Positions 40,296 to 50,408 of a stretch of 64,000 nt of DNA are shown here, in pieces. Where the stretch lies: assembly GCF_058153355.1 (NCBI RefSeq), contig NZ_CM177019.1; one strand, written 5' to 3'. Positions within the stretch are counted from its first letter, which is position 1. Each line of letters opens with the position of its first letter. The position numbers and the translations under genes are program-made. The notes beneath the pieces were generated by a model. The model was given only the letters and a program-made list of their open reading frames with translations. It was not told the DNA's origin and did not search any database.

Positions 40296-40542
40296 GATGT
40301 TCTGTCTCATCTTCCAGCCGCGCGGCACGATTTGCGGCACGGATAGCGGAAAATACCTGCATCGTCTGTTCCTGACTGTGTAACAACCATTCAGCAGTGT
40401 GGCGGGCCTGTTGCTCCGTCTGTAATTCACGGCGCAGCGTCTGGTTATCGTGGCGGGTGCTGTCCAGCCTGTGCCACAACACCCCGGACAGAACGGCGGT
40501 AAACACGGCTGCCAGCAGTAAACTTTTACTGGCGAAGGTCAT
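40156..40542 (-). CDS. Inner-membrane spanin (Rz-like)
   Basis: 128 aa; N-terminal transmembrane helix then coiled-coil; immediately downstream of the endolysin. Confidence 0.55.
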   Translation of the reverse strand: MTFASKSLLLAAVFTAVLSGVLWHRLDSTRHDNQTLRRELQTEQQARHTAEWLLHSQEQTMQVFSAIRAANRAARLEDETEHHDAKQKITTAITGDNCSTRPVPAVAADRLRELEKRTRAIGGDPARN

Positions 40543-41044
40543 CCGCCCCCCTGATATTCCAGATTGCCATTTCCACTTCGCGACGGTTCATCAGTCCTTT
40601 CCATTTATGGCCTGCGGCAAACACCCAGCGGGCCATCTGGTCACGTGCTCCGGCGTAATCACCGGCATTGAGTTTTTTCAGCAGCGTTGATTTACTGAAT
40701 GCGGTAACACCGGTGTTGAAAATAAACGTTGCCAGCGCCGTTTTCTGATATGGCGTCAGCGGCACCCTGACAAGACGATCGATTGCCGCATAAACCGGTT
40801 TTAAATCACTGTCGAGGAGAGCCATACACTCCGCATGGCTGTAACGGCGCATTTCAATATCCGGCCCGGTATGTCCCACACAGACCGTAAGCACACCGGC
40901 AATATCGCGGTAAGGCAGATAAGCGATATTTTCCAGATGGATCAGAGACTGACGGGTCATTTCCTGATAACCACCCACACCGCCACCGGCAATTGTTACA
41001 GCCAGCAGTGCGGCTTTCAGTTTTTTTGGGATCTCCGCCATCAT
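40526..41044 (-). CDS. lys: Endolysin with N-terminal signal-arrest-release-like segment
   Basis: 172 aa; N-terminal weakly hydrophobic Gly/Ala-rich stretch (AALLAVTIAGGGVGGY) followed by a lysozyme-like domain; follows C. Confidence 0.8.
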   Translation of the reverse strand: MMAEIPKKLKAALLAVTIAGGGVGGYQEMTRQSLIHLENIAYLPYRDIAGVLTVCVGHTGPDIEMRRYSHAECMALLDSDLKPVYAAIDRLVRVPLTPYQKTALATFIFNTGVTAFSKSTLLKKLNAGDYAGARDQMARWVFAAGHKWKGLMNRREVEMAIWNIRGADDLRQ

Positions 41045-41135
41045 GCTTCCCTGAAAAAATGCGCTGATGGCAGTCTAAAAAATCAGGTGACAGGTGCGGG
41101 ATTATGGTGACAGGAAATAACCGGCAGGATGCCGG

Positions 41136-41558
41136 TTATTTCTGGCTTTCAGGTGAGAACAGGTCAGGCTGATGACGTCGTGTATGCAGCTTTCTCTGGC
41201 GGGCAATAATCTGGTAGATCTGCGGCTGGGACAGGCGATACTGGCGACGCAGTTCTTCCATGTTACGACCATTGAACTGGCAGTAAAGCAAATCGTCGCG
41301 TAACGCGGTCAGGATCGTATCGCCGCAGGGGATGTAAAACTGCCGCCCGCCCAGAAAACAGGACAGGGCAACGGCCTGTTTACGGGCAAGCTCACGGGGA
41401 TTGCTGACGTTCTGGCGTTTCAGTTCGTTTTCCAGAACATCAATCAGATCAACCACCGAACGGGGCCAGCGTGATTCCAGTTCCGGGGCCGGGATGTTAT
41501 CAATATGTCCGATTAACTGGCGAATTGCCGGATCGTGTTCAAATAAATCATGCTGCAT
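41136..41558 (-). CDS. C: Late-gene transcription activator C
   Basis: 140 aa; paralogue of Mor (shared ...FNGRN...EL...Y..S motif). Confidence 0.85.
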   Translation of the reverse strand: MQHDLFEHDPAIRQLIGHIDNIPAPELESRWPRSVVDLIDVLENELKRQNVSNPRELARKQAVALSCFLGGRQFYIPCGDTILTALRDDLLYCQFNGRNMEELRRQYRLSQPQIYQIIARQRKLHTRRHQPDLFSPESQK

Positions 41559-41670
41559 ATTTTCCCCCGGTTAACAGACAGAAAGATACACCACGGCACT
41601 GATGGTTATCAGAACCACAAGGGCAATCACTTTTATCGCACTCATCAGCGTGGACGGACCGAAACATTCA

Positions 41671-41901
41671 TCACTGAATTTTCTGTACACAATATTTTTC
41701 CTTATAACGTTGGCAGTGGTGAAGAATTTCCGGCATATCAACCGACTGCCAGCCTTTCATGTAATAACTTCCGTGGGTGCCATCATGACCGGTATAGTCG
41801 CGGGGCGAAGGCCGTGGCCCACCGGCGACACGGTGTAAAACCTCCTGACGCAGCCGCTCACGTCTGCCAAGATGAAAGGATGCATTCCAGCCTTTACCCA
41901 T
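41671..41901 (-). CDS. Hypothetical small ORF between mor and C
   Basis: 76 aa ORF in the mor-C gap; no motif recognised. Confidence 0.3.
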   Translation of the reverse strand: MGKGWNASFHLGRRERLRQEVLHRVAGGPRPSPRDYTGHDGTHGSYYMKGWQSVDMPEILHHCQRYKEKYCVQKIQ

Positions 41902-41978
41902 GATGATTTCCCCCGGTACGGTTATTCATCACAGGATATTGAGGACGTAAAAAAAGCCGGATTAACCGGCTTTACTGT

Positions 41979-42368
41979 TTACAGTAGTGAGGGCTGGTAC
42001 TGGCGGTATTTCAGCCGTCGCATCCGGCGAATGGCCTTGTAAACCGTATTGAAAGTGACACCATAACGGGTGGTCAGTTCGCTGACGTTGCGACCGTTAA
42101 AATCATTCCAGATACGCAAATCCCGAATCAGCGAGTCCAGAACCTGACCGCGTGGAATGTAGACCTGACCGCCGCCCAGATGCTTACAGATAGCCACAAC
42201 AATCTCCAGTGAATGGGCAGGATCAACACCCAGCCGGGACAATTCCCCGCGCAGTAAATCGTTCAGCTCCGCCAGCAGTGCCGGAAAGCGTGACGTATCC
42301 TCGGCGGGATTGTCAAGATGTGCCAGGATGGTGTCATCCTGCAAATCACCAAATAAATCTTCCGTCAT
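41979..42368 (-). CDS. mor: Middle-gene transcription activator Mor
   Basis: 129 aa; Mor/C family; follows gemA with a 4-bp overlap. Confidence 0.85.
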   Translation of the reverse strand: MTEDLFGDLQDDTILAHLDNPAEDTSRFPALLAELNDLLRGELSRLGVDPAHSLEIVVAICKHLGGGQVYIPRGQVLDSLIRDLRIWNDFNGRNVSELTTRYGVTFNTVYKAIRRMRRLKYRQYQPSLL

Positions 42369-48187: not shown

Positions 48188-50179
48188 TTAAATGACTTTT
48201 TTACGTCTGTTCTGTTCCAGAATATCCAGCGAATGATTCAGATATTCATCACGCTCAGTTTCGTATTCATCATCACGCTCCTGATTCTTCACCCGTTCCG
48301 TATTACCGGAAGGCCGGAAAATGCTTACAATTCGTGATTCTGGTGCTTCAGGTTCGGCTATCTGCGGCAGCAGCTCTGCCACTTCCAGTGCATCCATTTG
48401 TTTCTGTGCCTTAATCGCTGCTTTCGTCGCAGATTTCAGTTGTTTCTGGCGGCGGCGATATTCACGGCCTGCCGCAGCATCATTAAACGCAACAGGTGCC
48501 AGACATTCCGCTTCACAGATAAACCGACCGTCCAGGGTGTAGCAATAAACCGTGCTGTGTAACTGCTGTGGATCAAATCTGACCACAACTTTTTTCACTC
48601 CGGCATTCATTAACGCCATGTTGTAATAAACGTTTTTCGCGCCTTTAAGGGAGCCGCCAACTTTAAGCGCGAACTCGCCTTTACGTGAAACGTTCACCGC
48701 CTCGGCAGGCAGTAACAGCATCCGTTTTTGCTCTTCGGTAGGCTTACGCACAATCGTTCTGGCGTATTCACGCTCAAAAACGTCATCAAACGAAAGTTTG
48801 CCCCCGCACATTTCTGTTTCTCGGCCTGTTCTGGCATTGAACATCGCCACACCTTCGGCAAGGGTTTTCAGAAACAGCTCTGCATCAACAGCGCGGTCGC
48901 CATAGTTATCAGGTTTTGCCTGCGGATTAGGCCCCGTATATGCGCCAGCCAGTGCCGGATGTTTATCAACGTATTCCTCAAGGCCACCAACACCGAAAGC
49001 ACGTTCTACAGGTTTTGCCTGGCCCCAGCCTTTACCGGCAACAACGCTTGTCCAGTGCATGGTCGCCCCCATCAGTAAAAACAGCCCCTTTGGATCGTCC
49101 TCTTTCACCTTAAAGCGGTAGCGATTGGGCGCGCCCCCCGTCAGCCATTTATTCGCAGCACCACGGGTGTTATCAATGGTGATGTGAAAATCCTCCGGGA
49201 TGCCGTAGCGTGTCACTACATCCATGAACGAGAGGCGAATTGAATCGATGTTCTCGCTAACATCGCAGCGCCAGCCCAGAATTTTTCGGGTTTTCACATC
49301 CTGCCAGAACCATGTTTTCGGGCGGATCACATCACCGTTAAACCAGCGTACAAAGACGTTATGCAGATAACCGTCGCCGTTGATCCACTGCATGGCGTCC
49401 AGGTGTTCCACAGTTCGTTGCTGTGCCGGTATCAGATGCATCAGTGCATGTTCACCTTCACGGCAGGCAACAACCATTGCCCCGTCCAGTTGCTGAATCC
49501 GGCGAAATGCCGTGGCTCGGGAGGGAATACTCCAGCCATGCTCGCGGGCTGCCAGTTCCAGACGCTCATAACATTTGCGGAAGGCGGGTTTTTCCGGTCG
49601 CAGATAATCTGCAATCAGAAACTGCCAGGCATCCTCGTCAAATTCACTTTTGTGAACATTGCGACGGGATGCTCCACGTCCATCAACAAGTGCAGCCGCC
49701 CAGTCAGGCTTCGCAAACTTCTGTACCTGGTAATACTTGTCCCGCAAAGTGGATGCGCTGACCTGGTAATGCCCTGCAACGGTCGCAAAAGCCGTTTTCG
49801 TTGAAATCCCCTGGTTCAGCATTTCGTCTGCAGCCTGAACCGCAGGCAACCATTTTTCAGCAAGTCTGCGCTGGGAATCGCTGGCGTTATCCCATTTGCT
49901 CCACAGTGCCTCACGATCATAATCATGGGCTTCCAGCGTGGGGCGGGCGATTTCAAAATACCCCTGACTTGTTTCAATCTCTCCTTGTCTCAGCAATAAC
50001 GCCGCTTTCGCTTCAACAGGTAAAGAGTTCGCATTGTATTCAATTGCTTTACCACCTTTGACACCTGCTCTAGTGCGGTTTTGCCATCCTTGCTTTTTAG
50101 CAACATAAATCACACCAGCCGATGTTTTCGGCAAACCAGGAAGATTCGCACACTCTTTCGGTGATACCCAAAGTTCCAT
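48188..50179 (-). CDS. A: DDE transposase MuA
   Basis: About 663 aa from [15 protein letters not shown] (ORF track starts 3 codons earlier at 50188); end- and enhancer-binding N-terminal domains, DDE core, C-terminal MuB/ClpX-interaction tail. Confidence 0.9.
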
Positions 50180-50180
50180 G

Positions 50181-50408
50181 TTATTCACCTGCTTGATATC
50201 GGCTAGGCCAGATTACTTCCGGTTTAGTTTCTAAGGCGTTAGCAATAATCTGCTCACCCTTTGGCCAGTGTCGTTCTAGCGCATTAGCTAATGTAGTTGG
50301 CGCATAACCGAACTGCCGGGAAAGAGCTGATAAAGAGAGCTTTCTTTTCTTAAGTCCCGCAATCACATCCGCTCGATGCCAATCACGGGCCTTTTCGTTG
50401 GAACACAT
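50181..50408 (-). CDS. ner: Ner (Cro-like early repressor)
   Basis: 75 aa HTH protein immediately upstream of A, divergent from c. Confidence 0.85.

What the first reader, a model, noticed from the sequence alone, without database searches (positions are those of the whole stretch)
41571..41645. Possible 24-aa hydrophobic micro-ORF immediately upstream of Mu C
The minus strand encodes MSAIKVIALVVLITISAVVYLSVC, a single-TM-like peptide, in the gap between the 76-aa ORF and C. No strong RBS was seen, so it may be spurious, but small membrane peptides are easily missed in phage annotation.
Basis: seen in the sequence. Interest (0 to 1): 0.15.

Follow-up and report, generated by a model that had tools for sequence, protein, structure and literature searches.

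The report
Phage Mu gene 20 membrane peptide
The 24-codon hydrophobic reading frame is real, but it is only the back two-thirds of a known 39-amino-acid membrane-protein gene (gene 20) of phage Mu; the gene is dispensable and its function is unknown, so the finding is ordinary.

Summary
The sequence is as described: minus strand 41645..41571 encodes MSAIKVIALVVLITISAVVYLSVC. It is not a stand-alone micro-ORF. It is codons 16-39 of the homologue of phage Mu gene 20 (gp20, AAF01097.1, UniProt VG20_BPMU, PHROG 19823). This is a 39-aa single-pass membrane protein annotated directly upstream of the late activator gene C in the Mor-dependent middle operon.

In the window the full ORF runs from GTG 41690 to TAA 41571. 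It has an AAGGA Shine-Dalgarno sequence 8 nt upstream and overlaps the 76-aa gene 18 homologue by 20 nt.

The 39-codon frame is kept in 16 of 17 related loci examined. The exception keeps the membrane helix but has a frameshifted tail. The codon-position signal is only modest.

The gene is confined to the close Mu/D108/SfMu group and is absent from more distant Mu-like phages. [quoted passage not shown]

Half of the relatives, including this window, lack the neighbouring membrane gene 19. Gene 20 therefore does not depend on it.

Verdict: already known, low interest.

The parts
41571..41690 (-). Gene 20 homologue (gp20): 39 codons plus TAA stop, start GTG; product (M)YRKFSDECFGPSTLMSAIKVIALVVLITISAVVYLSVC
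   Evidence: Aligns codon for codon with Mu_20 (AAF01097.1), 37/39 identical. PHROG 19823 E 1.8e-29 over 1-39. The product is exactly allele P0006, seen on >=1000 contigs.
41571..41645 (-).
   Evidence: Codon 16 is ATG, ATT or CTC among alleles. No Shine-Dalgarno sequence.
41699..41703 (-). Shine-Dalgarno AAGGA for gene 20, 8 nt upstream of the GTG; in Mu the corresponding site serves gene 19
   Evidence: Anti-SD duplex -6.2 kcal/mol. Mu annotates an RBS at the corresponding place before gene 19, and the alignment shows the correspondence.
41577..41639 (-). Codons 18-38: predicted transmembrane helix (AIKVIALVVLITISAVVYLSV)
   Evidence: Hydropathy 2.77. AlphaFold2 helix over residues 12-38, pLDDT 94-96 over residues 21-39. 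The Mu record notes one TMD, N-in C-out, by Phobius/TMHMM.
41690..41691 (-). Junction of the 372-bp gene 19 indel (gene 19 present in Mu/D108, absent here)
   Evidence: Alignment A1. Mu gene 19 lies at L001 611-973.
41671..41901 (-). Gene 18 homologue (76 aa), overlaps gene 20 by 20 nt
   Evidence: PHROG 2121 E 2.3e-37. Precomputed PF26867 Phage_Mu_gp18 on an identically placed gene. Segregating sites 8/8/42 by codon position.
41563..41568 (-). Shine-Dalgarno GGGGGA of C, starting 2 nt after the gene 20 stop
   Evidence: Anti-SD duplex -8.6 kcal/mol. Mu RBS annotation.
41136..41558 (-). Gene C (late transcription activator, 140 aa); its ATG is 12 nt after the gene 20 stop
   Evidence: Segregating sites 1/2/17 by codon position.
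41953..41973 (-). Terminator hairpin after mor, lying inside the region homologous to the Mor-activated middle promoter Pm (about 41915-41985)
   Evidence: Terminator scan. Mu features 'terminator' and 'middle promoter, activated by Mor' at L001 315-385. Near-identity to Mu in alignment A1, columns 1-60.
41979..42368 (-). Gene mor (129 aa), activator of the middle operon

Best explanation
The feature is the 3' two-thirds of the homologue of bacteriophage Mu gene 20. Shown: the window carries a Mu-like prophage on the minus strand. The gene order here is mor, terminator/Pm, gene 18, gene 20, C, terminator/Plys, then the SAR endolysin gene. The 39-codon frame from GTG 41690 to TAA 41571 is 95% identical to annotated Mu gp20. 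Inferred: gene 20 is transcribed with C on the Mor-dependent middle transcript. It is translated from its own Shine-Dalgarno sequence and start codon, probably coupled to gene 18, whose stop lies 20 nt inside it. The product inserts in the inner membrane as a bitopic N-in/C-out peptide. That peptide has a 17-residue cytoplasmic head (MYRKFSDECFGP is nearly invariant), one helix, and a C-terminal Cys at the periplasmic face. From the literature on Mu gp20: it is a dispensable accessory protein, it is not a holin or antiholin, and it is not toxic. Most likely mode of action (inference, low certainty): helix-helix binding to a host or phage inner-membrane partner during the middle and late lytic phase, rather than pore formation. 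It acts independently of gp19. The ATG at 41645 is an internal Met codon of one common allele, not a start.
For: - Identity and synteny with Mu_20. PHROG 19823 matches the full length at E 1.8e-29.
- The product is identical to allele P0006, found on >=1000 contigs. The Mu allele P0007 is UniProt VG20_BPMU.
- A start codon and Shine-Dalgarno sequence are kept in all three upstream contexts: Mu AAAGGGGCACC-ATG, window AAGGAAAAATATT-GTG, vB_YpM AAAAATACC-ATG.
- The frame is open in 17 of 17 loci. It is 39 aa in 16. The 17th (E148 lineage) keeps the helix and only changes its tail.
- Eight of 15 segregating sites fall at third codon positions in this frame, and 6 of 12 variable codons are purely synonymous. 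Within the helix there are 2 synonymous changes and 1 Thr/Ser change.
- The competing Cys-rich frame has a stop codon in Mu, SfMu and PhiR68_1.
- It is the most hydrophobic of 409 small ORFs in the window. AlphaFold2 predicts a helix over residues 12-38.
- Gene 20 is present whether or not gene 19 is present. Among E. coli genomes, 21 lack gene 19 and 19 have it.
[quoted passage not shown] Their induction, alone or together, left viability unimpaired after DNP triggering. [quoted passage not shown]
Against: - No direct evidence of translation (ribosome profiling, mass spectrometry or tagging) was found for gp20 in Mu or here.
- The coding-selection signal is weak: binomial P 0.06-0.09 for third-position excess, against 3e-6 for C and 1e-9 for gene 18. 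Half of the variable codons change the amino acid.
- Almost all copies are >=90% identical, so the intact frame could partly reflect recency and linkage to the essential C gene.
- One lineage (6 E. coli genomes plus an Enterobacter contig) carries a 2-nt deletion in codon 35.
- There are no homologues outside the close Mu group in 1.84 billion representatives. More distant Mu-like phages have C with no such ORF.
- No loss-of-function phenotype is known, so the proposed mode of action is an inference only.
Confidence: 0.8

Rival explanations
1. Independent 24-aa micro-protein initiated at ATG 41645, or a short isoform of gp20 made from that internal ATG in alleles that carry Met16.
For: ATG is present in the window and in the common P0006 allele (vB_YpM_3, L006, L009, L010, L016). 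The 24-aa product would still contain the whole helix.
Against: The codon is ATT in Mu, D108-type, SfMu and PhiR68_1 and CTC in the E148 lineage. There is no Shine-Dalgarno sequence, with a duplex of -2.4 kcal/mol. The 15 codons upstream in the same frame are the most conserved part of the ORF: Y2, R3, K4, D7, C9 and P12 are invariant. A proper start with a Shine-Dalgarno sequence exists at 41690.
Confidence: 0.03
2. Not a gene: a chance hydrophobic ORF in the leader of C, kept intact only because the Mu group is young and the stretch is tightly linked to the essential C gene.
For: A 39-codon open frame arises by chance in about 15% of random stretches. The codon-position bias is not significant at 0.05. 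A frameshift is tolerated in one lineage. It is absent from more distant Mu-like phages. No phenotype on inactivation has been reported. PGAP does not call it in any of the 40 E. coli genomes.
Against: It is the most hydrophobic of 409 small ORFs in the window. A start codon with a Shine-Dalgarno sequence is re-created across the gene 19 indel in three different junction forms. In the divergent E148 patch, three of the four codons changed in and next to the helix (codons 18-29) are synonymous in this frame. The other frames contain stops. Even the frameshifted allele still encodes a 22-residue hydrophobic helix and stays open into C.
Confidence: 0.12
3. A cis-acting upstream ORF whose translation, not its peptide, matters. 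Ribosomes finishing gene 20 at a stop 12 nt before the C ATG would open a hairpin that covers the C Shine-Dalgarno sequence and start codon, and so set the level of C.
For: The stop TAA (41573-41571) is followed 2 nt later by the C Shine-Dalgarno GGGGGA, with the ATG 12 nt downstream. The minimum-energy fold pairs the last gene 20 codons with the C Shine-Dalgarno sequence and AUG, at -15.2 kcal/mol. In the E148 lineage the shifted frame ends in a TGA overlapping the C start, so coupling geometry is kept.
Against: The hairpin is no more stable than in shuffled sequence (z -0.5; 58 of 200 shuffles fold as well), and it is weaker in the E148 allele (-11.6 kcal/mol, z +0.8). C has its own strong Shine-Dalgarno sequence (-8.6 kcal/mol). 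C orthologues at 54-67% identity sit directly behind a terminator and promoter with no upstream ORF. This reading does not explain why the peptide is a near-perfect membrane helix with a conserved N-terminus.
Confidence: 0.05

Closest known systems
Bacteriophage Mu gp20 (Mup20 / Mu_20, AAF01097.1; UniProt VG20_BPMU; PHROG 19823)
   Same: Same length (39 aa) and 37 of 39 residues identical. Same position directly upstream of C in the middle operon, and same stop-to-C spacing. Same predicted single TMD.
   Different: The start codon is GTG instead of ATG. The residues are Met16/Ser17 instead of Ile16/Asn17. Because gene 19 is missing, the gene sits behind the Shine-Dalgarno sequence that serves gene 19 in Mu, and it overlaps gene 18 by 20 nt.
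SfMu_20 / PhiR68_1 'Mup20' / vB_YpM_3 gene 00019 (gene 19-less Mu relatives)
   Same: Identical gene order of 18-20-C, with a 39-aa CDS annotated at the same coordinates. The vB_YpM_3 product is 100% identical to the window's.
   Different: SfMu has Phe37. PhiR68_1 has Ile16. vB_YpM_3 uses ATG with a different junction (ACC-ATG).
Holin / antiholin pair, proposed for Mu gp19 + gp20 by Samanta et al. 2021 as cited in PMC9239132
   Same: A small membrane protein encoded near the endolysin gene.
   Different: It is a middle gene, not a late gene. It was not lethal on DNP triggering and is dispensable for lysis. Here and in half of the relatives the proposed partner, gene 19, is absent.
Small hydrophobic type I toxin peptides (Hok, Ibs, Ldr, TisB and similar)
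   Same: Size and a single hydrophobic helix.
   Different: No match in Pfam, NCBIfam or PADLOC. No known antisense RNA in Rfam. Induction of Mu gp20 from a strong Shine-Dalgarno sequence left viability unimpaired.

Membership tests
Mu gp20 family (PHROG 19823, VG20_BPMU) | Full-length sequence similarity to Mu gp20 | tested here: met
   37/39 identical to AAF01097.1 in the alignment. PHROG 19823 E 1.8e-29 over positions 1-39 of 39. phmmer E 2.9e-16 to cluster P0001.
Mu gp20 family (PHROG 19823, VG20_BPMU) | Position directly upstream of C, downstream of mor/Pm and gene 18, in the middle operon | tested here: met
   The gene order mor, 18, 20, C, lys matches the annotated Mu, SfMu, PhiR68_1 and vB_YpM_3 records.
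Mu gp20 family (PHROG 19823, VG20_BPMU) | Usable start codon with a Shine-Dalgarno sequence at the position of the Mu gp20 start | tested here: met
   GTG 41690 aligns with the Mu ATG. AAGGA lies 8 nt upstream, duplex -6.2 kcal/mol.
Mu gp20 family (PHROG 19823, VG20_BPMU) | Single transmembrane helix, N-in C-out | tested here: inconclusive
   Hydropathy and the AlphaFold2 helix over residues 12-38 support one TMD. Charges (R3, K4, K20 before the helix, none after) fit N-in. Orientation was not measured and rests on the Phobius/TMHMM note in AF083977.
Holin / antiholin | Expressed from the late (lysis) transcript | tested here: not met
   The gene lies upstream of C and of the region homologous to the C terminator and Plys, in the Pm-driven middle operon. 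[quoted passage not shown]
Holin / antiholin | Lethal membrane lesion triggered by depolarisation; required for timed lysis | not testable with these tools
Holin / antiholin | Co-occurrence with its proposed partner gp19 | tested here: not met
   Gene 19 is absent from the window and from 21 of 40 E. coli genomes and 8 of 14 full-length phage records. All of these keep gene 20.
Type I toxin-like small membrane peptide | Membership of a described toxin family, or an associated antisense RNA | tested here: not met
   Zero hits in Pfam, NCBIfam and PADLOC at E <= 1-10. The only Rfam match in 41100-42100 is a sub-threshold sroD hit at the mor terminator.
Type I toxin-like small membrane peptide | Toxic on overexpression | not testable with these tools
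   The literature on Mu gp20 reports no loss of viability on arabinose induction.
Translational-coupling upstream ORF for C | Stop codon within a few nucleotides of the downstream Shine-Dalgarno sequence and start | tested here: met
   TAA at 41573-41571, Shine-Dalgarno at 41568-41563, ATG at 41558.
Translational-coupling upstream ORF for C | Downstream ribosome-binding site sequestered in a structure more stable than chance | tested here: not met
   Hairpin -15.2 kcal/mol, z -0.5. E148 allele -11.6 kcal/mol, z +0.8.
Translational-coupling upstream ORF for C | Upstream ORF retained wherever C orthologues occur | tested here: not met
   C orthologues of 54-67% identity (L023-L027) follow a terminator and promoter directly, with no small ORF.

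The most novel reading that the evidence does not exclude
Gp20 would be a stand-alone small inner-membrane effector made in the middle phase, acting without gp19. It would tune something not yet assayed, for example the membrane retention or release of the holin-less SAR endolysin system, or exclusion of superinfecting phage during lytic growth. The divergent E148 allele would then be a functional specificity variant rather than a decaying copy.
Probability: 0.12. Interest if true: 0.35.

Novelty: already known. Interest (0 to 1): 0.07.

Why it matters
It matters little. The ORF has been annotated as gene 20 in the phage Mu GenBank records, has a UniProt entry, and has been tested and rejected as a holin. 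Two modest practical points follow. First, RefSeq prophage annotation drops this gene in all 40 complete E. coli genomes that carry it, which illustrates the general blind spot for proteins under 50 aa. Second, gene 20 persists in all relatives whether or not the neighbouring membrane gene 19 is present. This adds comparative evidence against the holin-antiholin pair idea, and it marks gp20 as one of the few Mu membrane proteins still without a function.

Tried and rejected
- **Competing frame.** The 39-aa Cys-rich ORF at 41667..41548 (MFRSVHADECDK...) is open only in alleles with ATG at codon 16. It has a TGA stop in Mu, SfMu, PhiR68_1 and others. Rejected.
- **Longest ORF.** The 56-aa version from TTG 41741 is rejected. 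In Mu the same frame has a TAA three codons before the gp20 ATG.
- **RNA element.** The 171-nt fold gives z -1.7, and the local hairpin over the C Shine-Dalgarno sequence gives z -0.5. Rfam shows nothing in gene 20. Rejected.
- **Distant homologues.** phmmer against 1.84 billion representatives returned only Mu-group alleles. The word-index search needs >=40 aa (one search failed), and a repeat with one padding Met gave 4 clusters. tblastn against phages found only Mu relatives plus two chance Bacillus hits. An exact 31-nt pattern found nothing in JGI metagenomes or GTDB representative genomes. The IMG/VR pattern search gave 2 loci.
- **Positional analogues.** In Klebsiella phage Kp4866-3, a gene 18 homologue is followed by a multi-TM ORF, with no gene 20. 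C orthologues of 54-67% identity have no upstream small ORF.
- **Literature.** Mathee & Howe 1993 is not held and Samanta 2021 is not held. The SfMu and Yersinia Mu-like phage papers say nothing on genes 19 or 20. A 'Mup20' search returned only mouse urinary proteins. The Tn-seq preprint's gp19/gp20 mentions shown were about phage PCH45, not Mu genes 19/20.
- **Fold search.** Not run. A single 39-residue helix would give meaningless matches.

Full report
**1. What is in the sequence**

On the minus strand, 41645..41571 reads ATG AGT GCG ATA AAA GTG ... GTC TGT TAA. The surrounding minus-strand genes are:

- a 129-aa Mor protein (42368..41979);
- a terminator hairpin (41973..41953);
- a 76-aa ORF (41901..41671);
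- the feature itself;
- the 140-aa C protein (41558..41136);
- a lysozyme gene (41044..40526).

The best anti-Shine-Dalgarno duplex in the 20 nt upstream is -2.4 kcal/mol, against -8.6 for C and for the 76-aa ORF.

The peptide is not an average chance ORF. Among 409 first-ATG ORFs of 20-60 aa in all six frames of the window, it has the highest 19-residue hydropathy, 2.77. The runner-up, at 48233..48337 on the plus strand, is antisense inside the MuA-sized ORF and is probably spurious.

**2. What it really is**

A 901-nt query around the feature matches 16 phage records at 93-99% identity, plus one at 66%. These include Mu, D108, SfMu, PhiR68_1, Mu_3F6 and five Yersinia Mu-like phages. It also matches 40 of 5,426 complete E. 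coli genomes.

In the curated Mu record AF083977 the stretch between mor and C carries three genes:

- gene 18;
- gene 19, a 120-aa protein with four TMDs;
- gene 20, a 39-aa [quoted passage not shown].

Each has an annotated ribosome-binding site.

Aligning the window with Mu, PhiR68_1, SfMu and vB_YpM_3 gives the correspondence. Mu gene 20 (ATG TAC AGA AAA TTC ... TGT TAA) aligns codon for codon with window 41690..41571. The window product, (M)YRKFSDECFGPSTLMSAIKVIALVVLITISAVVYLSVC, is 37/39 identical to Mu gp20 (MYRKFSDECFGPSTLINAIKVIALVVLITISAVVYLSVC).

It is ATT (Ile) in Mu, SfMu and PhiR68_1, and CTC (Leu) in a divergent E. coli lineage. It therefore cannot be the conserved start.

SfMu, PhiR68_1 and vB_YpM_3 annotate a 39-aa CDS at exactly the corresponding coordinates, and PhiR68_1 labels it Mup20. 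The protein matches PHROG 19823 over its full length at E 1.8e-29. The window product is identical to a sequence recorded on at least 1,000 contigs (P0006). The Mu allele is UniProt VG20_BPMU.

**3. Start site and the gene 19 indel**

The window, like SfMu, PhiR68_1 and the Yersinia phages, lacks gene 19. The 372-bp difference runs exactly from the gene 19 start codon to the gene 20 start codon. Gene 20 therefore now sits behind the Shine-Dalgarno sequence that serves gene 19 in Mu. That sequence is AAGGA at 41703..41699, 8 nt before GTG 41690, with a duplex of -6.2 kcal/mol. As a result gene 20 overlaps the extended gene 18 by 20 nt.

Three junction forms exist, and each keeps a start codon at the same place:

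- Mu: AAAGGGGCACC-ATG;
- the window type: AAGGAAAAATATT-GTG;
- the vB_YpM type: AAAAATACC-ATG.

Among the 40 E. coli genomes, 21 lack gene 19 and 19 have it. All carry gene 20.

**4. Is the frame conserved, and is it under coding selection?**

I extracted the gene from 17 loci: the window, 7 phage records, 7 E. coli chromosomes and 2 IMG/VR contigs. The frame is open in all of them, and it is 39 codons long in 16.

The exception is the E148 lineage, found in 6 E. coli genomes and on an Enterobacter hormaechei contig. It has 12 substitutions packed into 54 nt of gene 20, against 1.6% divergence in the flanks (Poisson P about 1e-10). It also has a 2-nt deletion in codon 35. The shifted frame still reads a hydrophobic helix (…AIKVIALVVLISISAVVSFCLLTGGKYAA) and ends in a TGA that overlaps the C start.

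Segregating sites by codon position across the loci are:

| Gene | Sites at positions 1 / 2 / 3 | Binomial P for third-position excess |
|---|---|---|
| Gene 20 | 4 / 3 / 8 | 0.09 (0.06 without the start codon) |
| C | 1 / 2 / 17 | 3e-6 |
| Gene 18 | 8 / 8 / 42 | 1e-9 |

Six of the 12 variable codons in gene 20 are purely synonymous. Within the helix, two changes are synonymous (Ile22, Leu24) and one is Thr29Ser. Amino-acid variation is concentrated in codons 13-17, just before the helix.

Across 24 protein alleles, Y2, R3, K4, D7, C9, P12 and most of the helix are invariant. The alternative Cys-rich frame (41667..41548) has a stop in Mu, SfMu and PhiR68_1.

The selective signal is only modest, because almost all copies are more than 90% identical.

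**5. Distribution**

The family is very narrow.

- A full HMMER scan of 1.84 billion cluster representatives found only three hits, all of them Mu-group alleles.
- The word-index search found four clusters.
- tblastn against 50,697 phage records found only Mu relatives.
- An exact 31-nt pattern found nothing in JGI metagenomes or GTDB representative genomes.

More distant Mu-like phages do not have the gene. In Klebsiella phage Kp4866-3, a gene 18 homologue is followed by a multi-TM ORF and no gene 20. C orthologues at 67% and 54% identity sit directly behind a terminator and a promoter-like stretch with no small upstream ORF.

**6. What is known experimentally**

Chamblee et al. 2022 (PMC9239132) list genes 19, 20, 23 and 25 as the only Mu genes that encode TMD proteins. 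They note that Samanta et al. [quoted passage not shown] They also show that arabinose-induced 19, 20, or 19 plus 20 left viability unimpaired after DNP triggering, unlike the lambda S105 and phage 21 S68 holins. No function is assigned to gp20. I found no ribosome-profiling, proteomic or tagging evidence for the protein.

**7. How it most likely works**

*Shown.* The feature is the gene 20 homologue. It has a start codon, a Shine-Dalgarno sequence, a 39-codon frame and a hydrophobic helix. AlphaFold2 predicts a helix over residues 12-38, with pLDDT 94-96 over residues 21-39.

*Inferred from homology to annotated Mu features.* It is transcribed from Pm together with C.

*Inferred.* The product is a bitopic N-in/C-out inner-membrane peptide. 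The positive charges R3, K4 and K20 precede the helix, and nothing but Cys39 follows it. It is made in the middle phase and acts through helix-helix contact with a membrane partner rather than by forming holes. It acts independently of gp19.

A purely cis-acting role in coupling C translation is geometrically possible, since the stop lies 12 nt before the C ATG. It is poorly supported for three reasons:

- the hairpin covering the C Shine-Dalgarno sequence is no better than in shuffled sequence;
- C has its own strong Shine-Dalgarno sequence;
- C orthologues elsewhere lack any upstream ORF.

No known RNA family matches the stretch. There are no Pfam, NCBIfam or PADLOC matches.

**8. Verdict**

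Novelty is "already known" and interest is low. Two residual points are worth recording. Gene 20 persists in all relatives while gene 19 comes and goes. And RefSeq prophage annotation omits gene 20 in all 40 E. coli genomes that carry it.

Noticed in passing
window 41690/41691 (junction); Mu L001 611-982: Mu gene 19 (a 120-aa protein with four TMDs) is missing from the window through an exact 372-bp indel bounded by the start codons of genes 19 and 20. Among E. coli genomes, 21 of 40 lack it, as do 8 of 14 full-length phage records. It behaves as a precise gene cassette that can be present or absent.
   Followed up: partly
L005 (E. coli E148) 611-740; corresponds to window 41658-41587: One lineage (6 E. 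coli genomes plus an Enterobacter hormaechei contig, L018) has 12 substitutions within 54 nt of gene 20, against 1.6% divergence in the flanks, plus a 2-nt deletion that changes the C-terminus. This could be a recombination patch from an unsampled divergent phage or a specificity variant. No unshifted version of this allele was found.
   Followed up: partly
L006 386-946, L007/L008 49-609, L009, L010 (about 5239-4680 on the minus strand), L011 921-1499: Some Mu relatives carry an extra 186-192-aa gene between Pm and gene 18. RefSeq annotates it as a glycoside hydrolase family 108 protein in two of the E. coli loci. It would be a second putative muramidase expressed in the middle phase. The window does not have it.
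   Followed up: no
L019 1600-1710 (GCA_027276445.1): There is a 76-nt tandem duplication of the junction between the gene 20 3' end and the C 5' end. It produces an 83-aa chimeric ORF (P0005). It may be an assembly artefact or a real duplication.
   Followed up: no
40 E. coli RefSeq chromosomes, e.g. L012-L017: PGAP annotates no CDS for gene 20 in any of these genomes, although the phage GenBank records do. This looks like a systematic omission of a 39-aa gene.
   Followed up: yes
L015 about 630-641; L020 1487-1500: The spacer between the gene 20 stop and the C ATG is 1 nt shorter in L015 (131 vs 132 nt from the gene 20 start to the C ATG; indel not localised). In L020 the C Shine-Dalgarno G-run is GGGG rather than GGGGG. 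This is minor natural variation at the C ribosome-binding site.
   Followed up: no
window 48233-48337 (+): The second most hydrophobic small ORF of the window ([22 protein letters not shown]...) lies antisense inside the large minus-strand ORF 50212..48191, which is the size of the Mu transposase gene. It is probably spurious.
   Followed up: no
window 41671-41901 (-): The local Pfam scan gave no hit for the 76-aa gene 18 product. Yet precomputed annotations list PF26867 Phage_Mu_gp18 for an identically placed gene. The local Pfam copy appears to lack that model.
   Followed up: no
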